Shown one piece after another: positions 646-51,094 of a stretch of 64,000 nt of DNA. Made by a program: the position numbers and the translations under genes. The notes beneath the pieces were generated by a model, which was not told the origin of the DNA, did not search any database, and worked only from the letters and a program-made list of their open reading frames with translations. Numbering within the stretch: position 1 is the first letter of the stretch; each line of letters starts with the position of its first letter. This DNA is from Candidatus Moraniibacteriota bacterium. Lineage in GTDB: Bacteria > Patescibacteriota > Minisyncoccia > Moranbacterales > UBA11712. The DNA lies in the NCBI GenBank assembly GCA_030679895.1, contig JAUXSN010000026.1:24661-88660 (forward strand), written 5' to 3'.

Positions 646-718
646 GTGAACAGTGACCAACGATCAGTGATCAGTAATTTTGAAATATTGATCGCTGTTC
701 ACTGTTCACTGATCACTG
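646..718. repeat. Long imperfect palindrome of CAGTGATCA/CAGTGAACA words around an AT loop; overlaps the htrA stop and lies upstream of rplU
   Basis: Left arm gtgaacagtgaccaacgatcagtgatcag, loop taattttgaaata, right arm ttgatcgctgttcactgttcactgatcactg; a second copy of the same architecture is at 52790..52881. Confidence 0.7.
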
Positions 719-1927
719 TAAAGTCACCTTAATCTCCATCTCTTGCCCGTCTCTCGCGACCGTGATATTCAGTTCGTCTCCCGGCTTATATTTTGAAACA
801 AGATAAGCCAAGTTTTGTCCGGGATTGACTTCCTCGCCATTGACACTCAAAATTACGTCCGAAATGCGCAATCCCGCTTTGTCCGCCGGACTTCCGGAAA
901 TCACCGCGAGGCCCTGTTGGAGGCTGGGCGAATAGACAAGCGCTCCCCGGTCATATTTATTTCCTGTCAAATAAGAATTTTCCTTATCCAAGCTCAAATA
1001 GTATACTCCCAGGCTTCCCCTTTTTATGGCTCCATTTGCCAGATATTCGTCAATGAGATGCTCGATATGATTAACCGAAATAATGAAATATTGCCGGGTC
1101 TGATCCACTTTTTGAGATCCCAGAATGCCAACCACGTCTCCATTATAATCCGCCGCGGCCGCTCCGACCAAGTTTTCGTCTCCGAGATTGTCAAAAGCCA
1201 TATCGGTTAAAAAAACTCCCTGCAGTTTTTCGGATGTTGCCAAGGGTCCGGAAAGCGAGTATTGCTCGGCGAGCTGGCTGATTAATCCCGATTTATAAAC
1301 AATGCTGGCGTTGCTTTCGCCTCTTCCGATAGCGATAATCTTCGATCCCGTTTTTATATCTTCGGGTGCGATAAAGGACGCGGTAGGAAGATTTTCCGCC
1401 CCATCAACCTTGATGAAAGTCAAACCCGTAAAAGAATCAGTAAGGACCACTCTCCCTTCGAAAGATGTTCCGTCTGACGTGATAATCTTATATTTTGCCG
1501 GATCGGCTAAAATAGCTTCCTGATAAGTGATGATGAGTCCATCAGCAGTCGCGATAAGGCCGCTTCCGAATTTAGTTTGCCCGCTTTGATTGCTTTTTTT
1601 TGAAGAAACTCCGCTAGCGCTCTTTTGCGAGATAATTTCCACGACGCTTGATGCCGATTTATTTGAATAGCGGGAAATATTCTGCTCCTCGCTGACCGTA
1701 ACCTGCTCGGTTTTATTGACCACTACCACATTTTTGGTAGCCTTTTGAAGAAACTTGTATTTATTGAGCCACTTTGCCGTCGTGAGACGCGGGATAAGAG
1801 AGTAGTCGATAATCACGAGACTCGCGCCGGAAAGCGCGAATACCAACAAAACAAAAAAAGCAAACCTGATTATTCGCAGGCCCTTGCGAGACTTATGATC
1901 TTTTTCGCTTTTATTGTTTTCGTTCAT
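713..1927 (-). CDS. htrA: HtrA/DegP-family trypsin-like serine protease with C-terminal PDZ domain (N-terminal TM anchor)
   Basis: Trypsin-like core plus a PDZ-like C-terminus (GLRISDVILSVNGEEV). I moved the start to the ATG at 1927 (MNENNKSEK...), just after the upstream gene's stop at 1930; the track ORF 713..2113 overextends upstream. Confidence 0.8.
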   Translation of the reverse strand: MNENNKSEKDHKSRKGLRIIRFAFFVLLVFALSGASLVIIDYSLIPRLTTAKWLNKYKFLQKATKNVVVVNKTEQVTVSEEQNISRYSNKSASSVVEIISQKSASGVSSKKSNQSGQTKFGSGLIATADGLIITYQEAILADPAKYKIITSDGTSFEGRVVLTDSFTGLTFIKVDGAENLPTASFIAPEDIKTGSKIIAIGRGESNASIVYKSGLISQLAEQYSLSGPLATSEKLQGVFLTDMAFDNLGDENLVGAAAADYNGDVVGILGSQKVDQTRQYFIISVNHIEHLIDEYLANGAIKRGSLGVYYLSLDKENSYLTGNKYDRGALVYSPSLQQGLAVISGSPADKAGLRISDVILSVNGEEVNPGQNLAYLVSKYKPGDELNITVARDGQEMEIKVTLQ

Positions 1928-1929
1928 TG

Positions 1930-2673
1930 CTAGATTATCGGGTACCATTTGGTGCTCAAGAGTAAGATTGAGGCAGTCCCGGCCAAAAAAAATAAATTGA
2001 AAACTATTTTTCGAGCTGTTAGTTTTTCCGTAAAATAATTGCGGATAATATCCCAGCTGACGTAGTAGATTATGAGAGCAATAACTCCCGTTGTCAAGTA
2101 ACCGAAAGGCCAAAAATTTTGGATCCAGATAGCTCCCGCCATAAGATAAGCAAGATATACGGAATAGAGAACGCGCTGATAGCGGTTTATTTCAAGCTTA
2201 TTTATCATAATTAAGATATGCGAAACCAAAAAAGTAATTGCGGCAAAAACCGCCATAATATACCAAACTGACACCTGAATATTGAGATACCAGCCGTAAA
2301 CCGAAGTGTACCAGCAAAAAAGAGCGGCCAGCGCGGCCAAATTGACCATTGCCTTGGCTGTTTGATCCTTATCATATTTTCTCAACCGATAACCGGCCAA
2401 AATAGCCAGATAAAAAACGCCGCTTATGAGAAAAATGAATGCCTTGGCTTGGGCGGGAGAATCAATGAGCGGGAGAAGCAGGAGCGCTCCTACCGTCAAA
2501 AGAGCCAACAGAAAAAAGAAGCGGAAATTTCGAGCAATCAGCCTCACTCCGATTAATAACGCCGCCGCGAATATTCCGATAATCCAAAAAGCCCGGTCCG
2601 GATAATCAAAAACCAGCCAGAGCGCCGCCAGATTTATGAAACTTAAAAAAAAGACGCCGAATTCCCAAATCAT
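1930..2673 (-). CDS. Hypothetical polytopic membrane protein
   Basis: 247 aa with 6-7 predicted hydrophobic helices; no recognisable motif; co-directional and near-abutting htrA. Confidence 0.5.
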   Translation of the reverse strand: MIWEFGVFFLSFINLAALWLVFDYPDRAFWIIGIFAAALLIGVRLIARNFRFFFLLALLTVGALLLLPLIDSPAQAKAFIFLISGVFYLAILAGYRLRKYDKDQTAKAMVNLAALAALFCWYTSVYGWYLNIQVSVWYIMAVFAAITFLVSHILIMINKLEINRYQRVLYSVYLAYLMAGAIWIQNFWPFGYLTTGVIALIIYYVSWDIIRNYFTEKLTARKIVFNLFFLAGTASILLLSTKWYPII

Positions 2674-2682
2674 ATTTGCTAA

Positions 2683-5292
2683 TTACTGAATTACGATCTT
2701 ATCCTCTTTCGCGCCCACTTTTACTCTGTCTCCCTCTTTTATTTTCCCTTCCACAATCCGCAGCGCCAATTCGTCCAAAACCATACTTTGAATAGCCCGT
2801 TTTAGAGGACGGGCTCCGTATATCGGATCAAAACCGGATCGAGCCAGAAGATCTTCCGCTTCCGGACTGACATTCAGCTTGATATGTTTCTCCGAGAGCC
2901 TTTTGCGCACCAGATCCAATTGCATATCGACTATTTTTTTGATTTCACCCGTCCCAAGCGGATGGAAAATTATTATTTCATCCAAGCGATTCAAAAATTC
3001 CGGTTTGAATTTTTCGCGAAGAGACTGCATAACGCGATCTTTCATTTCTTCCTCCCGGAAGCCGAATTCTTTTACTTTTCCTTCTTGAAAACCGATTTCC
3101 TGCATTTTGTATATTATTTCCGATCCGACATTTGAAGTCATTACGATAACAGTGTTTTTGAAATTGACCATGCGGCCTTTCGCGTCGGTAAGGCGTCCGT
3201 CGTCGAGAATCTGTAGCAGAACATTGAAAACATCCGGATGGGCTTTTTCAATTTCGTCGAATAAAATCAGGCTGTACGGCCGGCGGCGCACTTTTTCCGT
3301 GAGCTGGCCGCCTTCCTCGTGGCCGATATAGCCGGGGGGAGACCCGATCATCTTTGCCACACTGTGCTGTTCCATATATTCGCTCATATCCACCCTGATC
3401 ATGGCATTTTCATCGTTAAAAAGAAATTCCGCCAAGGTTCTCGCCAGCTCGGTCTTGCCGACACCGGTCGGACCTAAAAATATAAAAGACCCGATTGGCT
3501 TATTTTCTTCGCCGATTCCGGCTCGTGATCTTCGAAGAGCATTCGCTACCGATTTTATGGCTTCGTTTTGACCGACAATCCGCATCTTCAGTTTTTCTTC
3601 CGCTTTAGCCAATTTTTCCATCTCGCCCTCAAGCATTTTGGAAACCGGTATTCCTGTCCAGCGCGATACCGCCCGGGCGATGTCTTCTTCGGTCACTTCT
3701 TCCTTGAGGATGGGATTTTTGCTCTGAATGGCCGTTAACTTTTTTTGTTCGGCTCTGATTTTTTTCTCCAGCTCCGGAATTTTTCCATAGCGGATTTCAG
3801 CTACCCGGCTCAATTCGCCTTGCTGTTCAAAAATATCCGATTCTCCCCGCAGCCGCTCCATTTCACTTTTATGCGAACGGATGTTCGTTATCAATTCTTT
3901 CTCGCTTTTCCACTGCAATTTCCATTTGTTGGCTCTCTCATTTATATCAGCCAGCCTTCTTCCGATATCTTTCAATTTATCTTTCACTCCTTTGTTTTTT
4001 TCTTTTTTAAGGCCTTCTTTCTCGATTTCAAGCCGCCTTTTTTGCCTATCCAGGTCGTCAATTTCCGCGGGCAAACTGTCAATCTCCATCCGGAGAGCCG
4101 ACGCCGCCTCGTCAACAAGATCCACAGCCTTGTCCGGCAGATTTCGATCGGCAATATAACGGCTGGAAAGCCGGGCCGCCGCGATGATCGCTTCGTCCGT
4201 CACCCGGACTCCATGATGAATTTCGTATTTTTCTTTGAGACCCCGGAGAATAGCGATTGTGTCTTCAATAGAAGGCTCATTGACATAAACCGGCTGGAAT
4301 CTTCGCTCCAAAGCCGCGTCTCGTTCAATATAGCGCTGATATTCCTTGAGAGTCGTCGCGCCGATAGCCCGGATCTTTCCGCGGGCCAAAGCCGGCTTGA
4401 TCATATTGGACGCGTCCATAGTCCCTTCCATGGCTCCGGCGCCGACAAGGGTGTGCAACTCATCAATAAAGAGGATATATTTTCCCGCTGACTTTTCTAT
4501 TTCGGAAAGAACCGCTTTGAACCTTTCCTCAAATTCACCTCTGAACTTGGAACCGGCAAGGAGCAAACCCAGATCCAGCATCAGTATTTCTTTTCCCTTG
4601 AGGCTTTCCGGGACGTCGGAGGAGATAATCCTTTGCGCCAATCCTTCCGCAATCGCGGTTTTTCCTGTTCCCGCTTCGCCGATAAGTACCGGGTTATTTT
4701 TTGTCCGGCGCGTCAGGACCTGCATCACCCTTCGGATTTCTTCCTCGCGGCCAATCACAGGATCCAGCTTCTTTTCGGCCGCTTCTTTGGTCAAATTTAT
4801 CGTATATTTTTCCAGAACTTGGTATTTTCCTTCCGGCGTCGGACTGTCCACCCGTTGATTTCCCCTCACTTCTTTCATAATTTTGAGCGCTATTTCAATA
4901 TTAACTTTATTTTCTTCGAGTATTTTCTTGGCGCGGCTCGGCACAGTAAGCAAAGCCAGAAAAAGATGTTCCGTGCTGATAAACTCATCTCCAAGATTTT
5001 GGGCCTGCTTGAAGCCTTCCTGAAGAATGCCGGCCATTTCGGAAGAAAGATAGAATTGTGGCGCCCCCGTCACTTTCGGTATTTTCTCAATTTCCGAAAA
5101 AACCCTTTCCTTAAGCTTTTTATTGTCTATCTCCAGCTTGTTGATAATCGTCGGCACTATGCTTTCCGCTTGCCCCAGGAGGACATAGAACAAATGCAAA
5201 ACATCCACCACATTTTGTTGTTGGGCCTGGGAAATCTGCTGGGCTCCCTGAAGAGCTTCTTGCGACTTTAAAGTAAGTTTATTTAAATCCAT
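2683..5292 (-). CDS. clpB: ATP-dependent chaperone ClpB (two AAA+ modules and middle coiled-coil)
   Basis: 869 aa with Clp N-domain, GEAGTGKT and GPTGVGKT Walker A motifs and a long middle domain. Confidence 0.95.
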   Translation of the reverse strand: MDLNKLTLKSQEALQGAQQISQAQQQNVVDVLHLFYVLLGQAESIVPTIINKLEIDNKKLKERVFSEIEKIPKVTGAPQFYLSSEMAGILQEGFKQAQNLGDEFISTEHLFLALLTVPSRAKKILEENKVNIEIALKIMKEVRGNQRVDSPTPEGKYQVLEKYTINLTKEAAEKKLDPVIGREEEIRRVMQVLTRRTKNNPVLIGEAGTGKTAIAEGLAQRIISSDVPESLKGKEILMLDLGLLLAGSKFRGEFEERFKAVLSEIEKSAGKYILFIDELHTLVGAGAMEGTMDASNMIKPALARGKIRAIGATTLKEYQRYIERDAALERRFQPVYVNEPSIEDTIAILRGLKEKYEIHHGVRVTDEAIIAAARLSSRYIADRNLPDKAVDLVDEAASALRMEIDSLPAEIDDLDRQKRRLEIEKEGLKKEKNKGVKDKLKDIGRRLADINERANKWKLQWKSEKELITNIRSHKSEMERLRGESDIFEQQGELSRVAEIRYGKIPELEKKIRAEQKKLTAIQSKNPILKEEVTEEDIARAVSRWTGIPVSKMLEGEMEKLAKAEEKLKMRIVGQNEAIKSVANALRRSRAGIGEENKPIGSFIFLGPTGVGKTELARTLAEFLFNDENAMIRVDMSEYMEQHSVAKMIGSPPGYIGHEEGGQLTEKVRRRPYSLILFDEIEKAHPDVFNVLLQILDDGRLTDAKGRMVNFKNTVIVMTSNVGSEIIYKMQEIGFQEGKVKEFGFREEEMKDRVMQSLREKFKPEFLNRLDEIIIFHPLGTGEIKKIVDMQLDLVRKRLSEKHIKLNVSPEAEDLLARSGFDPIYGARPLKRAIQSMVLDELALRIVEGKIKEGDRVKVGAKEDKIVIQ

Positions 5293-5341
5293 AATTTAAA
5301 ATTTCTCCCCTGCCCGAAGGGTGGAGGGGTGGAAGCTGTTA

Positions 5342-5368
5342 TTAGCACTCTCGTCATCCGAGTGCTAG
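5342..5368. promoter_or_regulatory. CIRCE inverted repeat (HrcA operator) in the clpB leader
   Basis: TTAGCACTC-tcgtcatcc-GAGTGCTAG against the consensus TTAGCACTC-N9-GAGTGCTAA; 17/18 arm positions match; 50-76 nt upstream of the clpB ATG. Confidence 0.85.
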
Positions 5369-5371
5369 TTT

Positions 5372-5399
5372 ATTATAGCTTTTCAGCGTGATCTGTCAA
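5372..5399 (-). promoter_or_regulatory. Sigma70-type promoter (TTGACA-16-TATAAT on the minus strand) just upstream of the CIRCE, driving clpB
   Basis: The minus strand reads cTTGACAgatcacgctgaaaagcTATAATaaa followed 3 nt later by CIRCE. Confidence 0.7.
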
Positions 5400-5477: not shown

Positions 5478-5741
5478 TTATAGCACGGCTCTATTCAGAA
5501 TATTTTCTATTACCCAATATTTATAATCGCCGATATCAAAATACGTATATTGTTTAGAATAAAACTTTGCAGTATAGCCGTTCTTTTTTATAAACTTATC
5601 GAATACATCAAAGATCTTTTTATCATTTTCAGATAAATTATCCCTCACAATGTAGTGGTGCGGTATCTCGGACATAGTTTTTGCGAATAACCACTCATTT
5701 TTTTCAACTAGTTTGCAAAACTTTTTATCAATACACTGCAT
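5478..5741 (-). CDS. Hypothetical small protein (87 aa), second gene of a two-gene mini-operon
   Basis: Its ATG lies 5 nt after the stop of the 68-aa ORF upstream (TAAacattATG), which suggests translational coupling. Confidence 0.4.
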   Translation of the reverse strand: MQCIDKKFCKLVEKNEWLFAKTMSEIPHHYIVRDNLSENDKKIFDVFDKFIKKNGYTAKFYSKQYTYFDIGDYKYWVIENILNRAVL

Positions 5742-5746
5742 AATGT

Positions 5747-5953
5747 TTAAATTTCAAATTTATCCGGTATTTCAGACAATGGATTATCCGAGTCTATCCT
5801 CACGGTGATCGAATCTTCTTTTTTGCGCTTGGAAACAAACTTGATTCCCTTGATAAAAGACATGGTTTGTTCGTTGTTTTGTTTTTTCAAGATTTGATAG
5901 ATGCCAGCTTCAATCCTTGCCCATATACTATCAAGAATATATGCGGAAAGCAA
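5747..5953 (-). CDS. Hypothetical small protein (68 aa)
   Basis: ORF abuts the RhuM-like gene and is coupled to the 87-aa ORF; no recognised motif. Confidence 0.35.
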   Translation of the reverse strand: MLSAYILDSIWARIEAGIYQILKKQNNEQTMSFIKGIKFVSKRKKEDSITVRIDSDNPLSEIPDKFEI

Positions 5954-5998
5954 AAATACTGCCGTAAAAAGCAGTACATTTTCCTGATAAACAAAGGC

Positions 5999-6604
5999 CT
6001 ATTCCTTCTTTTTCAACAACTTTTTCACTTCCCGATCGAAATCGGAGATATAATTTTTGTCCTGTTTTTTGCGATATTTTTCGAATTCTTTCAATGCCAG
6101 CGTTTCCGCCACTTCATGGCTGATTTTTCCCGCATTCATCAATATCTCATATTCGCTGAATTTCAAAAAAGCGTTCAGTTTTTTTATCCAGTCTTTCATG
6201 GTCATCACTCTGCCGCGCGCCGCTTGCAACTCGGCGTAATCAAGATACATATTGCCGATGCTGTTGAGATGAGCTAGTTCCTTTTTGTCCAAATAATTTT
6301 TGGCAATCACCGCGTCACTTGGCATGATTTTCCCCTGTGGAGAGCGCCGCCAGGAAGTCAATCCCATTTTTTCTTTTTGAACTTGTAAGAAATCTTTACA
6401 AGTTGCCAGTTCATCCAATTCACCTTCCGTATAAATATTCCTAAGATGCTGGGTAATATTTTGAGGTGTCGTATCAAAAAGCTCCGCCATACGTTTTTGC
6501 GGCAACCAAATATTTTCTTCAGCATAAAGCACCTCGATATTAACCGACCCATCCGGCGCCTGATAAAAAGCGATTTGATTGTCCGGTATCTTTTTTCTTT
6601 TCAT
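5999..6604 (-). CDS. RhuM-family (virulence protein RhuM / Fic-Doc-associated) DNA-binding protein, short form
   Basis: N-terminus IAFYQAPDGSVNIEVLYAEENIWLPQKRMAELFDTTPQNITQHLRNIYTEGEL and C-terminus LAHLNSIGNMYLDYAELQAARGRVMTMKDWIKKLNAFLKFSEYEILMNAGKISHEVAE match the RhuM family signature as I remember it. Confidence 0.65.
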   Translation of the reverse strand: MKRKKIPDNQIAFYQAPDGSVNIEVLYAEENIWLPQKRMAELFDTTPQNITQHLRNIYTEGELDELATCKDFLQVQKEKMGLTSWRRSPQGKIMPSDAVIAKNYLDKKELAHLNSIGNMYLDYAELQAARGRVMTMKDWIKKLNAFLKFSEYEILMNAGKISHEVAETLALKEFEKYRKKQDKNYISDFDREVKKLLKKKE

Positions 6605-6635: not shown

Positions 6636-7256
6636 CTACCCTATCAACGGCACAAAAGCGAACCCCGGAAATTCTTCTTCGCGGAATTCTTTCGCAGATA
6701 TTTTTTCAAAAACCCAGATGCTGTTTTCAATGGGGATGACTAACCGCCCGCCAACGGCCAGTTGTTTTTTGAGATCTTTCGGAACTTCCGAAGCCGCGGC
6801 TGACACCAGTATTCTTTTATAGGGCGCTTCGTTTACATAACCCTTTGTGCCATCGGCGCAAATTATTTTGGCTCTCCCCCCTTCTATCAAGTGATATTTG
6901 CTAAGATTATTTATCCCGAAATCGCGAAGACTTTTGATTCTTTCCAGGCCGACCACTTTTCCATGCTTGCCGACAATATGCGCGAGAAGCGCGGTTGTCC
7001 ACCCCGAACCGGAACCGACATCGAGAACTTTATCGCCCGGCTGGGACCCAAGTTTTTCCAGCATAAAAGCCACGGTGAGTGGCTGGGAAATTGTCTGGCC
7101 TTGCCCGATGGGAAGCGGAATATTCGCCTGCGCCGCCGACTGCAGATCGTCCGGTAAAAAATCAATCCGCTTTATTTTTGAAAAAGCCTCGATAACGCGG
7201 TCGGTTTTGAGATAGCCTTGATAGATAAGATCGCGGACAAGAGAATCCATATGCAA
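6636..7256 (-). CDS. pcm: Protein-L-isoaspartate O-methyltransferase
   Basis: GQGQTISQP motif and the SAM-binding LDVGSGSGW; 206 aa. Confidence 0.85.
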   Translation of the reverse strand: MHMDSLVRDLIYQGYLKTDRVIEAFSKIKRIDFLPDDLQSAAQANIPLPIGQGQTISQPLTVAFMLEKLGSQPGDKVLDVGSGSGWTTALLAHIVGKHGKVVGLERIKSLRDFGINNLSKYHLIEGGRAKIICADGTKGYVNEAPYKRILVSAAASEVPKDLKKQLAVGGRLVIPIENSIWVFEKISAKEFREEEFPGFAFVPLIG

Positions 7257-43148: not shown

Positions 43149-45689
43149 TTACAGCGGTTTTTCTCCCATATCGAATGCGTCAGCCGTGGCCGGCGTGGCG
43201 ATATAGCTCGCCTTTTTCATTATCTCTGCATTCACTATATCACGGCTGCGTCCATATTTCAACTTGGAAAGTTCTTTGATGGCTTCCGCCACTTTGGGAT
43301 TGCCCTTTGTCGGCGGATAGGTTTTCATATTGAACGGCGTTGCCACCTGGCTGTTGATCAGAAGCTTCATGAAACAATTGCGGTTATCCACGTTCATCAG
43401 ATCATTCGCGTCGAACACCGGCTCAAATTGCTTCTGCACAAATTCGGCGTCTTCCGCTCCGATCCGGAAGGAACAAATGGATCCGACGTTTCCAAAAACG
43501 GCTTTCGAAATTTCTTCTTTGAGCTGGGCAATGAATTGATGGGCGATAATGAGCGCCAAGCGGTATTTTCGGGCTTCCGAAAGGATCTGGGAGATCGAAT
43601 CGGTGGTGAAGTTCTGGAATTCGTCGATATAGAGATAGAAGTCTTTGCGTTCCGCTTCCGGCATATCCACCCGGGAAAGAGCGGCAATCAGAATTTTTCC
43701 GACAATCACCATTCCGAGAAGATTGGCGTTTATTTCACCGATTTTCCCCTTTGAAAGATTGACGAGAACAATTTGCTGGTCATCCATCGCCCGGCGGAAA
43801 TTCACCGTCGTCTTTTCCTGGGCGATAATCGGCCGCATCATATCGTTCGATATAAACTGCGTGAGTTTCGAGGTGATATAGGGAACCATATTCGCCAGCG
43901 CCGCCTCTCCGCCCGCTTTTTCGGCTTCCTTTTCCCAAAAATTCTTCACAATCGGGTTAGAGCAATAAGAAAGCTTCATGTGCCGGAATTCCTCATCGGC
44001 CAAAACCCTCGGGATCTCCATCAGGGTCGAACCTGATTCCGGATGCTCCATCACCAGAAGCGCCGCGTTTCGCATATATTGCTCGAACATCGGACCGCCG
44101 GTTTGCTTCAAATCATAAAGCTTGTCGAAAATATTGATGATTTCATTGATGACAAAAGTTTTTTGTTCCGGTTTATTGGTATCATACTCGAGCATATTGA
44201 GCCCGAAGGGGCGCTCCATATCCGCCGGGTCGAAATATATGACGTCTTCCGCCCGCTCTTTCGGAACGCATTCGATCACGTGTTCGACAAATTCGCCGTG
44301 AGGATCGATGACGCAAACGCCCCGACCGTTCTTGATGTCTTGCTTGACCATTTCTTCCATCATTGTTGATTTACCGGTTCCCGTCTGCCCGACGATATAG
44401 AAATGGCGGCGGCGGTCGTCATCATCGTGATGGATGACTGTTTCCACTCCCCGGTAATCATTGAATCCCAGAATTATTCCTTCTTTGGAAATATTCGGCG
44501 GCGGCGCGGCCGTCCGGGCCTTGAGCCAGGCAATTTTGGGAGTTTCCGTCGAAAAGAGCGGAAAATGGAAGATGCTGGATATTTCTTCCGAAGAAAGCAC
44601 GAAGCTTTGCTCGTTTTTGAAATTGCGGAAAATGAAATCGAAAGCGATTTTTTTCTCTTTTTTCTGATTTTCTCTCACAACCTTGAAGCCGTTTATACTC
44701 GGATTTTCGTACTGGATAAAAGCATTTTCCAGTTCCGCGAGAACTGCTTCGGCTCTTTCCTTGCTTAGGGCCGAGGATACCAGCCTGATGTTTGCGCTAA
44801 AACCGGGCTTATTAGCTTTTCCTTCAATTTTTTTGACAATTTCCTGCTCTTCCGGAGTGAGTTGGATAGTTTCCTTATCGGATTTAAAAACATCCCTTTT
44901 CTGGTCCTCGTTCTTTTTGACCATTACATTGAAAAATCCGCGGAAAAATTGCCGGAAAGGCGTGTCGCGTTTTACGTCGGAGAGGCGCCTCCCCTGCTGC
45001 ATTTTGTGGGCAATTTCCCTTCCCTTGCTCCTCCAATCTCCGCGGGCAGGCTTCACGAGCAGCTGGATGGCCGCCCCTTCTTTTTTTTCATCAAACTTTC
45101 CCAGAACATTGGTAATGTTGTTGAGCGGATCGGATTCCAAAGTTTGGTACGTGCGAAGCGGAAGACAATCTTTTTCCCGAAGTTTCAAATACGAAGCGGC
45201 AGTGAAGCTTCCCGGATAAAATATATTGTAGTCTTTCACGCGTTCAATGGCCGCTTTCGGATAAAAACTGTGAATTTGTCTTTCGACAATCTCAATAAAT
45301 TTTTTTGGAGCTCCCACATAGAAAGAAATTTCATCGTTTTCAGCCGGGTTGGAAATTTCCAGCGCGATCACCGCGTCGCCATAAATTATCCTGTGCCAAA
45401 GACCCGCTTTTTCTTTTATGTTTCCGAGGCTGGCGAAGAGATGCTCCATAACAGCGATTATCTCTTTTTCCGGCTTGGGCTGCTGTTGTTGCTGCTGGGA
45501 TGATTGCGATTGAGTTTTGAGAGAATGGCTGACCTTCACAACATCGATATCCATATTCAAAGAGCGGGTAATTTGTCCCTTGAATATGGTGAAGCTTCGA
45601 AAAATCATCCATCCGCCGGATATGAAACTAGCCAGAGCCAGAAGGCCAGCCAGCGGATAAAGTATTAAATTGAGGTTATAGGCGTCCAT
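43149..45689 (-). CDS. VirB4/TraC/TrbE-family (FtsK-HerA superfamily) secretion or conjugation-type ATPase with an N-terminal TM helix
   Basis: 846 aa; Walker A HFYIVGQTGTGKST...VIDPHGEF near aa 425; Walker B FYLYIDEFQNF; RKYRLALIIAHQF motif; VirB4-like domain order (large N-domain, ATPase in the C-terminal half). Confidence 0.6.
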   Translation of the reverse strand: MDAYNLNLILYPLAGLLALASFISGGWMIFRSFTIFKGQITRSLNMDIDVVKVSHSLKTQSQSSQQQQQQPKPEKEIIAVMEHLFASLGNIKEKAGLWHRIIYGDAVIALEISNPAENDEISFYVGAPKKFIEIVERQIHSFYPKAAIERVKDYNIFYPGSFTAASYLKLREKDCLPLRTYQTLESDPLNNITNVLGKFDEKKEGAAIQLLVKPARGDWRSKGREIAHKMQQGRRLSDVKRDTPFRQFFRGFFNVMVKKNEDQKRDVFKSDKETIQLTPEEQEIVKKIEGKANKPGFSANIRLVSSALSKERAEAVLAELENAFIQYENPSINGFKVVRENQKKEKKIAFDFIFRNFKNEQSFVLSSEEISSIFHFPLFSTETPKIAWLKARTAAPPPNISKEGIILGFNDYRGVETVIHHDDDDRRRHFYIVGQTGTGKSTMMEEMVKQDIKNGRGVCVIDPHGEFVEHVIECVPKERAEDVIYFDPADMERPFGLNMLEYDTNKPEQKTFVINEIINIFDKLYDLKQTGGPMFEQYMRNAALLVMEHPESGSTLMEIPRVLADEEFRHMKLSYCSNPIVKNFWEKEAEKAGGEAALANMVPYITSKLTQFISNDMMRPIIAQEKTTVNFRRAMDDQQIVLVNLSKGKIGEINANLLGMVIVGKILIAALSRVDMPEAERKDFYLYIDEFQNFTTDSISQILSEARKYRLALIIAHQFIAQLKEEISKAVFGNVGSICSFRIGAEDAEFVQKQFEPVFDANDLMNVDNRNCFMKLLINSQVATPFNMKTYPPTKGNPKVAEAIKELSKLKYGRSRDIVNAEIMKKASYIATPATADAFDMGEKPL

Positions 45690-45716
45690 TTTTTATTTTT
45701 ATTTCCACTATACAGT

Positions 45717-46253
45717 CTACAATTCCACAAGAAGTCCTTTTTGGAAAAGCTGTTTTCTCAAATCTTCCTCGATCATCTTATCGTGCAACTCGTCCAAAGT
45801 GTAATTGTCGTTGGCGTCCATATGTTGAGCTACTTTTATGGCGTGTTCCGGCCCCTTTTGAAGAGCCAACTCCACCAGCTTTTCGACTTTTTTTTCGTAT
45901 TCGGCAATTCCGGCCACTATTTTGGCATCGTCGGCAATTGTGGTCGCCACGGGCGTTTTTTGCGTGCTGATGGTTTTGCGGACAGTTTCGATTTTTTCGG
46001 ACACTTTTTCTTCCTGGAATTCTCCTCCGATTTCCCGCTCGAGACCGGGAGTTTCAATTTCTCCTGCTAATATACTTTCCGCCGACTCCGTCGAAGGTAA
46101 TATTTCTTCCTGTTCCGACGGTTTTTCAGAAACGTTTTTTTCTTCATTTATAAAGGTTTTTTCGGGATTCAAAGCCTCGCCCGGACCGGTAAATTTTTTC
46201 GTCAAATCAAGATCCTCCTTTTCGATTGGCTCCTGATAATTGGACTGTGCCAT
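45717..46253 (-). CDS. Hypothetical acidic protein (178 aa)
   Basis: Co-directional, 27 nt upstream of the ATPase; Glu-rich. Confidence 0.45.
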   Translation of the reverse strand: MAQSNYQEPIEKEDLDLTKKFTGPGEALNPEKTFINEEKNVSEKPSEQEEILPSTESAESILAGEIETPGLEREIGGEFQEEKVSEKIETVRKTISTQKTPVATTIADDAKIVAGIAEYEKKVEKLVELALQKGPEHAIKVAQHMDANDNYTLDELHDKMIEEDLRKQLFQKGLLVEL

Positions 46254-46314
46254 TGGGATAAATTTATCAATTAGTTAGATAATGCAAAAACCGCACTTTT
46301 ACGCATCCTGACCT

Positions 46315-46653
46315 TTATTTATTTTCCACTGGAGCATTTTTGCCAAAGCTGGCGATATCTTCTTTTAATTCGTCCTTTAATTCACTGACAACTTTCTTCA
46401 CGAATTCGTCGTAGTCGCTTATCTTGCTTCGGAGAAAAGATTCGACTTTCTCCTGATCGGATTTTTCCTCCAGCATTTTCATCAATTCCTGCTGATCTTC
46501 TTTCGTTAATCTGTCCATCGTTTCCATATACAAGCGCTTCAAAACAAGTTCCAGCAAGTCAACCAGAATTTGCGCTTTTCTTTCTTCGGGTAAATCTCCA
46601 AGTCCCAGCTCATCAATAATTGTTTGTTGTAAGATCGTATTTTTTTCGGTCAT
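46315..46653 (-). CDS. Hypothetical acidic helical protein (112 aa)
   Basis: Co-directional member of the cluster. Confidence 0.45.
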   Translation of the reverse strand: MTEKNTILQQTIIDELGLGDLPEERKAQILVDLLELVLKRLYMETMDRLTKEDQQELMKMLEEKSDQEKVESFLRSKISDYDEFVKKVVSELKDELKEDIASFGKNAPVENK

Positions 46654-46670
46654 TTTGTTTATTTAATTAT

Positions 46671-48938
46671 TTATGCGTTGACTACTCTTTTTAGAGTTCT
46701 AACTATTTCTTCAGGCGTTACTTTCCCCTGCGCTAATCCTCTTTGAAGCCAACTTTCCGTGCTTTCATTGCCAAGGGTTGGCCCCAGCTTTCTATTCAGC
46801 TCTTGAGCTGCCCGCCAATACTGTTGCTGTTCGCCAACATTAGCCGGCGGTCCCATCGGCTGATCGGAAGTTAGAAATGATCCCAACATTCTTTTTCTGA
46901 ATTCGCTGGCCGGCTCCCTCCAATCAACAGTTGTACCCTCGCCGTATATTCTTTCTTGAATGAAATCCATCCATTTGTGCGTTTGAGTGTTATCTATCGC
47001 AGCCGTTTCAGCAATTCTATCCGCTATTAGCGGTCCTCTTGATTGGACTAAAGCTTCGTGGGTCTGAGCTGATATTGCGGCTTTCTTCGCATAATTTTCT
47101 TGAGCCATTTTTTGCCGATTATCAAGCGCTTGATCCAACGCCGAACGTTTTCCAGTAGTTTCATAAGTGCTCGCTCCTCGCGGATGATTATCGGCAACGG
47201 CTCTCCCTGCTCCTCCGGGCGCGGAAGCTTCTGCTACAGCTTGTCCGGCACCGCCTGCCCGTGGAACATCATGTATGTGGCCCGCCTTTATTCCCGAAGT
47301 TTCACCAAGTAAAATATGCCCGTCTGCGTCGAGAGTGATCGAATCTCCCGGATGAACCACGATGTTGCCTATACCCTGTTCTTTTATGGCGCCCACCGTT
47401 CTCCATTCAGCCCAAATTTTATGTTTTTGATCGTCCGTCAAGCCGCTGAAGTCTTCAACCCCTTTTATGCCTAAACGCTTCAGAATACCTTGATCCTTGA
47501 ACGATCCAAACAGTCTTTTTGCCTCATCGTCGCTATATCCGTATTCATCAAAATGTTGCATAAAAATATCTCGCGTGCTTCTCCAAACGCTCCCGCCTTC
47601 TCCTACTTTTGCTGTACCTCCGGTAAATTCCCAATGCTCTACCTGTTCATATCCAGGTACTATTGGACCATGTTTCTGATCAGGGTTGATAATTCCTTTC
47701 CCGGCTCCGGCTGGCATTTCCGCATCGGTAATTGAACTGTGCGCGGCATCGTAAAAACCGGTTTTTCCGCCTCCGAACGAATGCGTCACCTTTTCCCAAG
47801 CCTGGCCGAAGAATCCTTTAATATCGGCTGCGTAATAGCTGGCGATAGTGCCCGCCAAAAATGTTCCGCCCGCAAGCCCAAGCGCCAATTTTTTATGTTT
47901 TGCGTCTTTATCAGCAAATGCTTGCTCCTCCCCTGTTATTGATTTTAAGCCTTCCCTTTCCGCAATAAAAGCGTTCCATTCTTCATCCGTTTTTTGTTTT
48001 TTGGCCTCAATTATTTTTAAAACATCGGCTTGAACTTCTTTTTCCTTTTTTTCCACGAAGCCTTTCTCCATTCTTTTCTTCAACGCATAACCGGCTCCTA
48101 CAGAACCAAAAGCGCGCCACGCCATTGCTGCCGACGCCCCGGCTGATCCAACTGCCACAATACCCAAAGCGGGCAAACTGGCCGCGATAAGAGACGTTGC
48201 GGCAAAACCAATGGCCGCGGCAGTTGCCACCCCTTTCGCAACTCCTTTTACGGTCAATTTTCCATCCTTTAGAAATTGTTTGGAGATAAACTCCCGGTAA
48301 TTCTTGCTGACGTTTGCCAAGCCCACAAAAGCATTGTTAAATGTGGCATCTTTTGCTCGAATTCCGTCTTCCTCCAGCCTCGATTTGATGGCAACCATTG
48401 TCTCGTGATAATTTGTCTCAAATTCCGCCCACTCTTGCTCATTTCCGCTCAAGACGTGCCTGCCAGCAGCCATTAATTTCGGGTGCAAAGTTTTTCTATT
48501 TTCCAGGTATCCCTTGATTTCTTCATCTTCAATATTTCTTTTCCATATACCCAAAGCTTCAAAAATAATCTTCAATTTGCCTTTCGATTTATGCCTTGCT
48601 GCGGCTATCTTTTTTTCATTTTCATCAAATTCCTTCCTCACTTGATCAAATTCTTTCCGGATTTTTCTTTCTTCTTCAAGCGTTGCCAAAGGAACCGGTG
48701 GCTGATCAATCCGACTGCCCCGGCTACCACCTTCAAATTCACTGAACCTCTTTGGCTCTCTTTTTTCCTCGGTTCCAGCTCTATCGTGACCAGGCTCACC
48801 TCCCATAAGCCCCGCCCCGGATTTTTCAACGGGTTCCGGTTCAGCATCGGGAGACGTGGCTGCTGGAGTCGCAGTTACAAGATCTTCAGGCTTCCCGGGT
48901 CGCGGATTGATATCTTTTCTTAAACCTTCTCTTATCAT
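46671..48938 (-). CDS. Large hypothetical protein (755 aa) with a central Gly/Ala-rich block of 2-3 TM helices; GC-richer than the flanks
   Basis: Hydrophobic block GVATAAAIGFAATSLIAASLPALGIVAVGSAGASAAMAW; no recognised catalytic motif. Confidence 0.5.
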   Translation of the reverse strand: MIREGLRKDINPRPGKPEDLVTATPAATSPDAEPEPVEKSGAGLMGGEPGHDRAGTEEKREPKRFSEFEGGSRGSRIDQPPVPLATLEEERKIRKEFDQVRKEFDENEKKIAAARHKSKGKLKIIFEALGIWKRNIEDEEIKGYLENRKTLHPKLMAAGRHVLSGNEQEWAEFETNYHETMVAIKSRLEEDGIRAKDATFNNAFVGLANVSKNYREFISKQFLKDGKLTVKGVAKGVATAAAIGFAATSLIAASLPALGIVAVGSAGASAAMAWRAFGSVGAGYALKKRMEKGFVEKKEKEVQADVLKIIEAKKQKTDEEWNAFIAEREGLKSITGEEQAFADKDAKHKKLALGLAGGTFLAGTIASYYAADIKGFFGQAWEKVTHSFGGGKTGFYDAAHSSITDAEMPAGAGKGIINPDQKHGPIVPGYEQVEHWEFTGGTAKVGEGGSVWRSTRDIFMQHFDEYGYSDDEAKRLFGSFKDQGILKRLGIKGVEDFSGLTDDQKHKIWAEWRTVGAIKEQGIGNIVVHPGDSITLDADGHILLGETSGIKAGHIHDVPRAGGAGQAVAEASAPGGAGRAVADNHPRGASTYETTGKRSALDQALDNRQKMAQENYAKKAAISAQTHEALVQSRGPLIADRIAETAAIDNTQTHKWMDFIQERIYGEGTTVDWREPASEFRKRMLGSFLTSDQPMGPPANVGEQQQYWRAAQELNRKLGPTLGNESTESWLQRGLAQGKVTPEEIVRTLKRVVNA

Positions 48939-48945
48939 ATAAATT

Positions 48946-49986
48946 TTATTTACTTTTAGCTAAAAAATCTTCAATTTCAGTTGCTTCTTCAAAAAACTTG
49001 GCTATTTGTTTAACACCCTCTTCGCTAAAATTTTCTTCTCTTGCAATTTCTTCCACAAAACCGATAAATTCCAAGTTGAGAGCGGCTAGCTCTCCCTTTT
49101 TTATATCTATTTTATCCTTTTCTTTTCTATAACGGTTTAAAACCGGCATCAGCCAATCTTTCAAAAAATATTCAACATCCTCTTCCGGCAGTTTGGCTAT
49201 TTCGCTTAAGGCTGCGTTTGCTTTGTTCAGAGCTTTCATCTTGACATCAACTATTCTTTTTTCATTCGGAGATAAACTATCATAATTTAGTGCCAGCGAT
49301 TCGCGAGCTTCCTGAATTCCCGCTTTTTTGAATAATTCTTCTTTTATATCCGTTTCGGCAGGTTCCCTTTCTCCGGCAGCATCACCGGCTTCGGAACCAC
49401 TTTTCCCAATATTTTCTCTTCTTTTTTCGATTTTTCGCAACTCCTTATAAGAAGTAAGAAATTTGCTTAATTCCCTCTCCGGATTGAGGCAGCGTTTATA
49501 TACCGCGTTTTGCGCAAATTGTGTATACTTTATTTTTTTCCCGGCTAACTCCAAATCGGCTATTCCAGCCGCTATATCTTGAAAAATTTGCTCCATAGAT
49601 TCTTCGATTTTTTCTATGGAACTTGAAAACTCATCGATCTCTTTTGCTAAATCGTCATAATTTATTCCCTTGCTTTCAATCAGCCTCTTTCTTTCAGCAT
49701 TTTCTTTCGCCACAAGCGCCCATTCCATTTTTTCTTTCAACTTGCCGTACGCCTCCTTGATCGCTTCTTTTATTTCTTCGCCATATTCCTTTTTGATCTT
49801 TTCTATTTTCGCTTTTTTTTCCTCGGAATCAAATTCATCTTTAATCCCTTGGTTTACCACCAATTTTTCTTCTTCCGCAACAGCTATTCCAGGGACAGTA
49901 ATTTTCCTATCTGCCGCCGAGGCAACCGCGGCTCCCTTTACTTCCAAACCCGGAGCTACTCCCGATGTTTTTTTCCTTCCACTCAT
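48946..49986 (-). CDS. Hypothetical coiled-coil protein (346 aa)
   Basis: K/E-rich heptad-like sequence; 7-nt gap to the downstream gene. Confidence 0.45.
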   Translation of the reverse strand: MSGRKKTSGVAPGLEVKGAAVASAADRKITVPGIAVAEEEKLVVNQGIKDEFDSEEKKAKIEKIKKEYGEEIKEAIKEAYGKLKEKMEWALVAKENAERKRLIESKGINYDDLAKEIDEFSSSIEKIEESMEQIFQDIAAGIADLELAGKKIKYTQFAQNAVYKRCLNPERELSKFLTSYKELRKIEKRRENIGKSGSEAGDAAGEREPAETDIKEELFKKAGIQEARESLALNYDSLSPNEKRIVDVKMKALNKANAALSEIAKLPEEDVEYFLKDWLMPVLNRYRKEKDKIDIKKGELAALNLEFIGFVEEIAREENFSEEGVKQIAKFFEEATEIEDFLAKSK

Positions 49987-50159
49987 TTCGTCAAAATAAA
50001 ATTAAACTAGCGCAAAACTAGTCTGCGTTCGTAATTGGATTATACCACAAAATTAATGTGAAAAGAACCCTGTGGATAACTTTTTCTTCAAAAAAATAAC
50101 CCCGATCCGAATCAAGCAGCGCCTGATTCGAAACGGGGGTCGGAAAAACTTACCGTTGC

Positions 50160-50966
50160 TTAGAACACCTCCAGGGGAATCCGAGCTTCTCCCTTCGGAT
50201 CCCCATTGGGGACGATACGAATTTCGCGTTTACCGGGAGCAGAAAATGTGAAGGTATTGGGGTGCTTGATCGTCATTGCGACCGAGCCATCAAACTCGAT
50301 TCGGTCCGAATCATCATTGATGTCGGAGCGGATGAAGAGTAAATCAAACCCGCTTTTCAACCTAATGCCCTGTTTATGGTTTTCGGGGGAGATTATCTCC
50401 ACTTTCCCTCCCTCAATCCTGAATGTGATAATCCGGTCATTGATTTTTTTATCCGTGGGAATTATTACCGCGGTCAAAGGCCTTTCCTTCACCGCTGCCT
50501 GTCCATTCCAATGCGCAATAGACATCGTGACCCCGGACCAAATTTCAATAATGTCTCCGCTGACACGGAGAAAGCCATTAGGGATATCCCTTTCCTCCTT
50601 GACGAATTTTATCCCCCCGCGTATAGGCTGCATCACCAGGTAACTAAGTTCCGGAGCGGAACTGCCTTTTGTAAAAGAGAAAACAATGGCATCTTTGCCC
50701 GCGCCAAAAAAATTGCGGACCGGCTCCACGATTCCAGCCGAATGCTCTGTATAGCTGATAACCTTTTTCAGCTTTCCCCCAGACTTGAGAAATATCTGAA
50801 CATGGGTCTGGTCAGATTGGAAATCCGTGCAATAAACGACCCGGTAATGCTTTTTGCCCCACTTCAGGAAAAAATTCCCCTCTTCGGCCTTTCCCGGAGC
50901 AGGAAAAGCAAATAAGATCAGAAAAACTACCGCTAATACGCCACACAAATTTTTAAAAAACAACAT
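50160..50966 (-). CDS. Hypothetical secreted protein (signal peptide MLFFKNLCGVLAVVFLILFAFPAPGKA), first gene of the cluster
   Basis: GGAGGG SD before the ATG at 50966; the track ORF extends to 51014. Confidence 0.45.
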   Translation of the reverse strand: MLFFKNLCGVLAVVFLILFAFPAPGKAEEGNFFLKWGKKHYRVVYCTDFQSDQTHVQIFLKSGGKLKKVISYTEHSAGIVEPVRNFFGAGKDAIVFSFTKGSSAPELSYLVMQPIRGGIKFVKEERDIPNGFLRVSGDIIEIWSGVTMSIAHWNGQAAVKERPLTAVIIPTDKKINDRIITFRIEGGKVEIISPENHKQGIRLKSGFDLLFIRSDINDDSDRIEFDGSVAMTIKHPNTFTFSAPGKREIRIVPNGDPKGEARIPLEVF

Positions 50967-51094
50967 GAAGTTCACCCTCCCCGTCCGAGTTTTTTTACCA
51001 CTTTGCCTAATCATTAGGGTAAATTGCTGTTTTTGTCAAGTTATTGCTGGCCGGACTTTTTTAGTGTATAATAATATCGTACCGCGATGAAATT

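What the first reader, a model, noticed from the sequence alone, without database searches (positions are those of the whole stretch)
5342..5399. clpB under a perfect sigma70 promoter fused to a CIRCE/HrcA operator
On the minus strand, TTGACA-16-TATAAT is followed 3 nt later by TTAGCACTC-N9-GAGTGCTAG (17/18 match to CIRCE), 50 nt upstream of clpB. CIRCE classically controls groESL and dnaK. CIRCE-regulated clpB is known mainly from wall-less or reduced-genome bacteria (Mollicutes), so this points to an HrcA-centred minimal heat-shock regulon.
Basis: partly seen in the sequence, partly recalled or inferred. Interest (0 to 1): 0.5.

Follow-up and report, generated by a model that had tools for sequence, protein, structure and literature searches.

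The report
Heat-shock repressor site controlling clpB
A textbook heat-shock repressor binding site (CIRCE) sits directly on a perfect promoter in front of the protein-disaggregase gene clpB of an ultra-small Candidate Phyla Radiation bacterium; the arrangement is real and conserved in related lineages, and it extends a well-known control system to a group where I found no published description of it.

Summary
On the minus strand, 5399-5342 reads TTGACA-16-TATAAT-aaa-CTAGCACTC-N9-GAGTGCTAA, 49 nt upstream of a bona fide clpB. It is the only CIRCE match (0.01 expected) and the only 12/12 sigma70 promoter (0.03 expected) in the 64 kb. CIRCE upstream of clpB is present in 18 of 20 members of this ClpB clade and in 0 of 35 non-CPR clpB loci; only the promoter hexamers and the two CIRCE arms are conserved. 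The window holds no hrcA, dnaK or groESL, so the cognate repressor could not be shown in this genome. CPR relatives, including Uhrbacteria and Falkowbacteria whose clpB also carries CIRCE, encode a short HrcA (~230 aa, lacking an internal ~110-residue insertion) at the head of a CIRCE-preceded hrcA-grpE-(hsp20)-dnaK(-dnaJ) operon. Most likely mechanism: HrcA sits over the transcription start and blocks RNA polymerase until heat or protein misfolding inactivates it. This is a new member of a known system, close to the Mollicutes HrcA regulon. CIRCE at groESL or lon in CPR remains untested.

The parts
5394..5399 (-). -35 hexamer TTGACA
   Evidence: TTGACA-like hexamer conserved in the type-A orthologous clpB promoters.
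5372..5377 (-). -10 hexamer TATAAT, 16-nt spacer from the -35
   Evidence: The only 12/12 promoter in the window.
5342..5368 (-). CIRCE operator CTAGCACTC-N9-GAGTGCTAA (17/18 to consensus). It starts 3 nt after the -10, so the expected transcription start (about 5365-5366) lies in its left arm.
   Evidence: Arms carry 1.0-2.0 bits per column (mostly >=1.6) against 0.1-0.8 for spacer and flanks across 15 orthologous promoters. The transcription start position is inferred from the usual 6-7 nt distance after the -10, not measured.
5305..5329 (-). GC-rich 5'UTR hairpin CCCCTCC...GGGGAG that pairs the only Shine-Dalgarno-like sequence. Role unknown; not conserved.
   Evidence: Absent from the closest relatives L019 and L061.
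2683..5292 (-). clpB (869 aa), the gene under the promoter-operator
   Evidence: TIGR03346 at 1238 bits, cutoff 1232. 100% identical to an NCBI ClpB labelled Candidatus Moranbacteria.
1930..2673 (-). DUF5656 gene, 9 nt after the clpB stop codon; probably co-transcribed
   Evidence: Pfam PF18900. Synteny with L061 and L005. No terminator-like site between it and clpB.
713..1927 (-). HtrA-like PDZ serine protease, 2 nt after the DUF5656 stop; possibly the third gene of the operon. An 11/12 promoter-like site at 2097-2069 could also drive it.

Best explanation
This is a negatively controlled heat-shock promoter. A consensus housekeeping-sigma promoter drives clpB, and probably clpB-DUF5656-htrA. 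A CIRCE operator begins 3 nt after the -10 box and covers the expected transcription start. Under normal conditions a dimer of the HrcA repressor, in CPR bacteria a short ~230-aa form, occupies the operator and stops RNA polymerase from initiating. When heat or protein misfolding inactivates HrcA, either directly or by titrating away the GroEL that keeps it active, the very strong promoter fires and the disaggregase is made. Shown here: the sequence anatomy, its non-random nature, its conservation in orthologous promoters, the existence of HrcA and of CIRCE-controlled hrcA-dnaK operons in related CPR lineages, and operator variants shared by hrcA and clpB promoters. Inferred: that this genome encodes HrcA, that HrcA binds this site, the transcription start position, and the inactivation mechanism.
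For: Anatomy and chance. Gene identity. Conservation: CIRCE (<=2 mismatches) lies 4-103 nt upstream of clpB in 18 of 20 members of the window's ClpB clade that have upstream DNA, in only 2 of 24 members of a second CPR clade, and in 0 of 35 non-CPR clpB loci, whose best match has >=6 mismatches. Footprint: only the -35, the -10 and the two arms are conserved; the N9 spacer and flanks are not. Regulator: a 226-aa HrcA homologue found behind the same module has 6715 relatives. The best 120 are all 178-260 aa with PF01628, and every named organism is CPR; a second search adds Uhrbacteria, Veblenbacteria and Kerfeldbacteria. Its AlphaFold model (pLDDT 93) best matches T. maritima HrcA 1STZ (E 1e-11, TM 0.76 normalised by the query). 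CPR hrcA operons (Falkowbacteria L207, Uhrbacteria L212, L215 and L218, Patescibacteria L209 and L211) all carry CIRCE with 0-1 mismatch. The right-arm variant GACTGCTAA is shared by the hrcA promoters of Uhrbacteria L212 and L215 and by clpB promoters L008 (Uhrbacteria), L013, L003 and L017, as expected if one protein reads both. In 120 metagenome contigs the same promoter+CIRCE module precedes hrcA (66-67), groES (21), clpB-like genes (10-11), htpG (7-9) and hsp20 (2-3), i.e. almost only chaperone genes. Published mechanism: GroE titration and operators overlapping the core promoter and start site (PMC6032397; PMC7053576).
Against: No hrcA, dnaK, grpE or groESL and no second CIRCE in the 64 kb, and the rest of the genome could not be reached. 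No HrcA hit among the 240 listed is labelled Moranbacteria. No contig or genome was found that holds both hrcA and a CIRCE-clpB; the nearest case is sister Uhrbacteria MAGs from one study. The CPR HrcA lacks the inserted domain which, from my recollection of the 1STZ paper, forms the main dimer contact. Its binding as a dimer to a palindrome is therefore assumed, not shown. No expression or binding data exist.
Confidence: 0.85

Rival explanations
1. The inverted repeat works mainly as RNA: a 5' stem-loop in the clpB transcript that sets mRNA stability or translation, with no repressor needed.
For: The repeat folds as a perfect 8-bp stem in the predicted RNA. From my own knowledge, CIRCE has been reported to destabilise mRNA in B. 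subtilis.
Against: With the -10 ending at 5372, transcription should start inside the left arm, so the full stem would not be transcribed (inference). In architectures B and C the promoter hexamers lie inside the spacer, so the repeat is not fully transcribed there either. Across orthologues the arms keep the specific CIRCE sequence and do not vary with compensatory changes, which points to protein recognition.
Confidence: 0.05
2. The operator is a relic or is read by another protein: this particular genome has lost hrcA, and clpB is simply constitutive from a strong promoter.
For: hrcA was not found in the window. Two members of the clade (L005, L006) have lost CIRCE. Spiroplasma shows gradual CIRCE decay (PMC5138195).
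Against: The site has only 1 mismatch, and that same variant (CTAGCACTC) is kept in relative L019 although the spacer between the arms differs, so it is under selection. Short HrcA is widespread across CPR (6715 and 7835 hits).
Confidence: 0.07
3. Chance resemblance to CIRCE and to a promoter.
For: None beyond the moderately AT-rich composition (GC 0.41-0.47).
Against: Expected 0.01 CIRCE matches and 0.03 perfect promoters per window. The two are adjacent, upstream of a chaperone gene, and conserved in 17 other genomes.
Confidence: 0.01

Closest known systems
CIRCE/HrcA regulon of Mollicutes (Mycoplasma pneumoniae, M. gallisepticum, Spiroplasma melliferum)
   Same: CIRCE directly controls clpB as well as the dnaK operon in a reduced genome with few regulators (PMC5138195; PMC7737663).
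   Different: Unrelated phylum (CPR, not Mollicutes). Mollicutes also place lon, pepA and pip under CIRCE, which was not tested here. The CPR HrcA is about 110 residues shorter. The CPR promoters are near-consensus -35/-10 with three distinct ways of interleaving with the operator.
Bacillus subtilis class I heat-shock genes (hrcA-grpE-dnaK-dnaJ and groESL under sigmaA promoter + CIRCE, GroE titration model)
   Same: Same operator consensus TTAGCACTC-N9-GAGTGCTAA next to a housekeeping promoter. An autoregulated hrcA-grpE-dnaK operon is also present in CPR relatives.
   Different: In B. subtilis clpB is absent and the Clp ATPases are under CtsR (my own knowledge). Here the disaggregase itself carries CIRCE. 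GroEL dependence is untested for the short HrcA.
Helicobacter pylori / Campylobacter jejuni HrcA operators
   Same: The operator overlaps the core promoter and the transcription start (PMC6032397).
   Different: Those systems need a second repressor, HspR; from my own knowledge, their clpB is under HspR rather than HrcA. No HspR-type site was looked for here.
Thermotoga maritima HrcA structure (PDB 1STZ)
   Same: Best structural match of the CPR short HrcA model (E 1e-11). The winged-helix motifs and the C-terminal GPxRMxY motif are conserved.
   Different: TM is 0.76 normalised by the query but 0.55 by the target. The CPR protein lacks the ~110-residue insertion inside the GAF-like domain (the insertion is noted in PMC3779223). 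From my recollection of the structure paper, that insertion is the 'inserted dimerizing domain'.

Membership tests
CIRCE operator (HrcA binding site) | 9-bp inverted repeat separated by exactly 9 bp, matching TTAGCACTC-N9-GAGTGCTAA | tested here: met
   17/18 match with a 9-bp spacer at 5342-5368; 0.01 expected by chance.
CIRCE operator (HrcA binding site) | Placed at or just downstream of a housekeeping-sigma promoter of a chaperone or protease gene | tested here: met
   Starts 3 nt after a 12/12 promoter, 49 nt upstream of clpB.
CIRCE operator (HrcA binding site) | Conserved in orthologous promoters, with arms constrained and spacer free | tested here: met
   18 of 20 clade members. Arms carry 1.0-2.0 bits per column (mostly >=1.6), spacer 0.1-0.8 bits.
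CIRCE operator (HrcA binding site) | Cognate hrcA gene in the same genome | tested here: inconclusive
   Absent from the 64 kb by tblastn and by a CPR-HrcA HMM, and the rest of the genome was unreachable. Present in related CPR candidate phyla, including Uhrbacteria and Falkowbacteria whose clpB carries CIRCE.
CIRCE operator (HrcA binding site) | Other regulon members (dnaK operon, groESL) carry the same operator | tested here: inconclusive
   Not in the window. In CPR relatives hrcA-grpE-(hsp20)-dnaK(-dnaJ) has CIRCE with 0-1 mismatch. groESL in CPR was not tested: the labelled groESL loci with the module were Caldisericota, Campylobacterales and Deferrimicrobium/Deltaproteobacteria-type.
CIRCE operator (HrcA binding site) | HrcA binds the site; transcription is derepressed by heat or misfolding | not testable with these tools
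   Needs gel-shift or footprint assays and RNA measurements.
ClpB disaggregase | Full-length match above the curated equivalog cutoff (two AAA+ modules, N-domain, middle domain) | tested here: met
   TIGR03346 at 1238.2 bits against a cutoff of 1232.1, covering residues 6-868. Pfam Clp_N, AAA, AAA_lid_9, AAA_2 and ClpB_D2-small.
HrcA repressor family (for the CPR short form inferred to read this site) | PF01628 HrcA domain, N-terminal winged helix with the SxATxRN motif, C-terminal GPxRMxY motif | tested here: met
   Best fold match is 1STZ.
HrcA repressor family (for the CPR short form inferred to read this site) | Inserted domain within the GAF-like domain (dimer contact in 1STZ) | tested here: not met
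   A clean ~110-residue gap relative to B. subtilis HrcA and the full-length HrcAs in the alignment. The best 120 hits of each search are 178-266 aa. TM normalised by the target is only 0.55. It is therefore a reduced variant of the family.
RNA thermometer (considered for the 5'UTR hairpin 5305-5329) | Shine-Dalgarno sequestered in a stem that melts in the physiological range, and conserved | tested here: not met
   The Shine-Dalgarno-like sequence is paired, but the stem is predicted to stay folded at 60-70 C and is absent from the closest relatives.

The most novel reading that the evidence does not exclude
CPR bacteria run their heat-shock response with a stripped-down HrcA that has lost the inserted dimerisation domain yet still reads the canonical palindromic CIRCE. 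In one large CPR clade this mini-repressor directly controls the ClpB disaggregase (with an HtrA-like protease) in addition to the dnaK operon. If so, the short HrcA must dimerise and sense stress differently from the studied proteins, for example through the GAF-like core alone or as a GroEL-independent intrinsic thermosensor. It would then be the smallest natural form of this widespread repressor.
Probability: 0.35. Interest if true: 0.55.

Novelty: new member of a known kind. Interest (0 to 1): 0.3.

Why it matters
Regulation in CPR/Patescibacteria is almost unexplored. Full-text searches for HrcA together with Patescibacteria or 'candidate phyla radiation' returned one irrelevant paper and none, respectively. 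NCBI labels most of the named CPR HrcA hits 'DeoR family regulator' or 'hypothetical protein'. This locus gives a clearly readable promoter and operator in a CPR genome. It shows that consensus sigma70-type promoters are in use there, and that the disaggregase joined the HrcA regulon in one large CPR clade, in parallel with Mollicutes. It also provides a well-defined strong, repressible promoter module that could be useful once CPR organisms become genetically tractable. It does not change how HrcA/CIRCE is understood.

Tried and rejected
1. hrcA, dnaK, grpE, dnaJ, groES or groEL inside the window: none found by Pfam on about 55 ORFs, by tblastn with B. subtilis HrcA (validated against 1STZ), or by a CPR-HrcA HMM.

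2. Reaching the rest of the genome: the exact-match lookup of ClpB returned only a 7.3-kb Logan contig, and the lookup of the last complete gene in the window found nothing.

3. Same-contig or same-genome linkage of hrcA and CIRCE-clpB: no locus holds both. Contig lengths of ClpB and HrcA hits do not coincide. The Uhrbacteria HrcA records (JACQMM01, JACPJN01, JACQSE01) are sister MAGs of the clpB loci JACQSC01 and JACQRZ01, not the same genomes.

4. CIRCE at groESL in CPR: the groESL loci carrying the module that could be named belong to Caldisericota, Campylobacterales and Deferrimicrobium/Deltaproteobacteria-type organisms. Neighbour-gene lookups for the unlabelled loci L162 and L194 returned no organism names, and comparison of their ORFs with held CPR DNA found nothing. 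No groEL lies in any held CPR DNA.

5. 5'UTR hairpin as an RNA thermometer or a repeated element: too stable, unique in the window, and not conserved.

6. HrcA domain boundaries from the literature: only an indirect statement of an insertion in the GAF-like domain was found (nothing). The name 'inserted dimerizing domain' rests on my memory of the 1STZ paper.

Full report
OBSERVATION. On the minus strand the window reads cTTGACA(5399-5394)-gatcacgctgaaaagc-TATAAT(5377-5372)-aaa-CTAGCACTC(5368-5360)-ggatgacga-GAGTGCTAA(5350-5342). The ATG of a long ORF follows 49 nt later, at 5292. It is the only match to the CIRCE consensus at up to 3 mismatches in 64 kb, where 0.01 is expected. The promoter scores 12/12. 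It is the only 12/12 site in the window, against 0.03 expected, while sites scoring >=11/12 number 9 against 1.0 expected. Consensus sigma70-type promoters are therefore in real use in this genome. The ORF 2683-5292(-) is ClpB: TIGR03346 gives 1238 bits against a cutoff of 1232 over residues 6-868.

ORGANISM AND CONTEXT. The ClpB is 100% identical to an NCBI protein labelled Candidatus Moranbacteria bacterium, on a 114,362-bp contig. Of its 64-95% identical relatives, those that carry an organism name are mostly Moranbacteria; the others are named Parcubacteria group, Patescibacteria group or simply 'bacterium'. The best species-representative genomes are Parcubacteria/Patescibacteria MAGs. 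The window (GC 0.41-0.47) encodes typical CPR housekeeping genes and contains no hrcA, dnaK, grpE, dnaJ, groES or groEL. The window holds three tRNAs and no rRNA. Downstream of clpB, a DUF5656 gene (1930-2673) starts 9 nt after the clpB stop. An HtrA-like PDZ protease (713-1927) follows 2 nt after that, then rplU. The order clpB-DUF5656-htrA-rplU is shared with the closest relative L061, and clpB-DUF5656-htrA with L005. No terminator-like site separates clpB from DUF5656, so an operon is likely.

CONSERVATION. Eighty clpB loci from species-representative genomes were fetched with 3 kb of flank and scanned. ClpB proteins were placed in a neighbour-joining tree.
- In the window's clade (labels: Uhrbacteria, Magasanikbacteria, Falkowbacteria, Parcubacteria, Patescibacteria), 18 of the 20 members that have upstream DNA carry a CIRCE with <=2 mismatches, 4-103 nt before clpB. 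L005 and L006 do not.
- In a second CPR clade (Saccharibacteria, Paceibacterota, Minisyncoccales, Liptonbacteria), only 2 of 24 do.
- In 35 non-CPR loci (Spirochaetes, Chloroflexi, Calditrichia, Aminicenantes, Deltaproteobacteria, Nitrospina and others), the best match has >=6 mismatches.
When 15 orthologous promoters are aligned on the operator, the two arms carry 1.0-2.0 bits per column (mostly >=1.6), while the N9 spacer and flanks carry 0.1-0.8 bits. TTGACA-like and TATAAT-like hexamers sit 1-6 nt upstream. Three interleavings occur:
- Type A: the operator lies just after the -10 (the window and most loci).
- Type B: the -10 lies inside the N9 spacer (L021, L026, L027, L218).
- Type C: the -35 TTGACA lies inside the spacer (L207, L209, L043).
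In all three, a bound protein would overlap RNA polymerase contacts.

THE REPRESSOR. A B. subtilis HrcA sequence recalled from memory was first validated against T. maritima HrcA (1STZ, E 6e-28). It finds no gene in the window or in the clpB flanks. The first gene downstream is hrcA (66-67 loci, usually hrcA-grpE-dnaK-dnaJ), groES-groEL (21), a clpB-like gene (10-11), htpG (7-9), hsp20 (2-3) or something else. The module is thus almost exclusively a chaperone-gene promoter, and regulon membership varies by lineage.

Four loci encode a 226-230-aa HrcA with a clean ~110-residue internal gap. They retain the winged-helix motifs and the C-terminal GPxRMxY motif. Searching one of them against 5.8 billion proteins gave 6715 hits. 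The best 120 are all 178-260 aa with PF01628, and every organism named is CPR: Kuenen-, Buchanan-, Giovannoni- and Falkowbacteria and 'Patescibacteria group'. They are mostly annotated 'DeoR family' or 'hypothetical'. A second search added Uhr-, Veblen- and Kerfeldbacteria. The AlphaFold model (pLDDT 93.3) best matches 1STZ, with E 1.3e-11 and TM 0.76 normalised by the query but 0.55 by the target. That fits an HrcA fold missing a domain. The full-length C-terminal domain is classified as GAF-like with an insertion (PMC3779223). From my recollection of the structure paper, that insertion is the 'inserted dimerizing domain'.

Labelled CPR genomes have hrcA(short)-grpE-(hsp20)-dnaK(-dnaJ) operons, each preceded by a CIRCE with 0-1 mismatch. 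The right-arm variant GACTGCTAA is shared by the hrcA promoters of Uhrbacteria L212 and L215 and by clpB promoters L008 (Uhrbacteria), L013, L003 and L017. This is the pattern expected if one protein reads both promoters.

MECHANISM. The -10 ends at 5372, so transcription should start about 6-7 nt later, at A5366 or G5365, inside the left arm. This is an inference. An HrcA dimer on 5368-5342 would therefore cover roughly -3 to +24 and block initiation or promoter escape, as described for HrcA operators that overlap core promoters (PMC6032397). Relief would come from heat-induced loss of HrcA activity, or from titration of GroEL by misfolded proteins (PMC6032397; PMC7053576). Because the promoter is perfect, derepression should give very high expression of the disaggregase, and probably of the co-transcribed DUF5656 and HtrA-like genes. 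I put this explanation at 0.85.

The rivals are weaker:
- An RNA-only role for the repeat is disfavoured. The predicted start lies inside the arm, and the arms keep a specific sequence and do not co-vary.
- A relic operator in a genome that has lost hrcA cannot be excluded, but it is unlikely given the near-perfect site. The same variant arm is kept in relative L019 although the spacer between the arms differs.
- Chance is excluded.

WHAT COULD NOT BE SHOWN. hrcA in this genome, and any second CIRCE in it, could not be shown. Same-genome co-occurrence of hrcA and CIRCE-clpB could not be shown either; the nearest case is sister Uhrbacteria MAGs from one study. CIRCE at groESL or lon in CPR remains untested, because the nameable groESL loci carrying the module were Caldisericota, Campylobacterales and Deferrimicrobium/Deltaproteobacteria-type, and attempts to assign L162 and L194 failed. 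The absence of other heat-shock regulators was not examined.

COMPARISON AND NOVELTY. The closest known system is the Mollicutes HrcA regulon. [quoted passage not shown] The present case has the same operator and the same logic, in an unrelated reduced-genome radiation and with a shorter repressor. Full-text searches found nothing on HrcA or CIRCE in Patescibacteria/CPR. I rate it a new member of a known kind. It is of modest interest for the operator itself and of somewhat more interest for the short HrcA noticed along the way.

Noticed in passing
Not in the window; loci L124, L142, L175, L191, L207, L209, L211, L212, L215, L218; proteins P0001-P0120 and P0342-P0459: CPR bacteria encode a 'mini-HrcA' of about 212-246 aa that lacks the ~110-residue insertion in the GAF-like domain of canonical HrcA. 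Among the listed hits that carry an NCBI name, most are labelled 'DeoR family regulator' or 'hypothetical protein'. The model has pLDDT 93 and its best fold match is 1STZ.
   Followed up: partly
window 5305-5329 (-): GC-rich hairpin CCCCTCC...GGGGAG in the clpB 5'UTR pairs the only Shine-Dalgarno-like sequence. It is predicted to stay folded up to 60-70 C, is unique in the window, and is absent from the closest relatives, whose leaders are short, A/U-rich and lack a Shine-Dalgarno. Similar CCCTCC/GGAGGG hairpins occur in the hrcA leaders of L209 and L218.
   Followed up: partly
window 5478-6604 (-): About 1.1 kb is inserted between the PCMT gene (6636-7256) and the clpB promoter: a truncated RhuM-family gene (5999-6604) plus two small ORFs (5747-5953, 5478-5741). 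In relatives L061 and L019, PCMT lies directly upstream of the clpB promoter. A full-length RhuM gene also follows dnaK in Uhrbacteria locus L212.
   Followed up: partly
loci L021, L026, L027, L218 (type B); L207, L209, L043 (type C): Besides the window's layout (operator just after the -10), CPR heat-shock promoters use two other interleavings. In type B the -10 box lies inside the CIRCE N9 spacer; in type C the -35 TTGACA lies inside the spacer.
   Followed up: partly
loci L040, L048, L049 (near the clpB start) and the second CPR ClpB clade in general: Paceibacterota-type clpB loci lack canonical CIRCE. Three of them carry a variant palindrome, TTAGCAATC-N9-GATTGACAA, whose arm changes partly preserve the symmetry. 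In this clade an htrA-like gene sits directly upstream of clpB, not downstream as in the window.
   Followed up: no
window 43149-52789: A VirD4/TrwB-like coupling ATPase (43149-45689) lies next to several large ORFs with no Pfam match (46671-48938, 48946-49986, 50160-51014, 51095-52789). This may be a CPR type IV secretion or DNA-uptake cluster.
   Followed up: no
window 2069-2097 (-): An 11/12 promoter-like site (TTGACA-17-CATAAT) inside the 3' part of the DUF5656 gene, about 140 nt upstream of the HtrA-like gene. It could be an internal promoter that lets htrA escape CIRCE control.
   Followed up: no
metagenome loci L084, L085, L088, L107, L118, L154, L165, L184, L186 (htpG); L110, L115, L172 (hsp20); L169; L091; L147, L166, L195: The same promoter+CIRCE module precedes htpG and hsp20, a sigma-70-family factor gene (L169) and a SecA-like gene (L091). 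It also precedes N-terminally shorter ClpB-like ATPases (about 700 aa) outside the CPR ClpB clades. Several of the htpG loci are from gut-type contigs.
   Followed up: no
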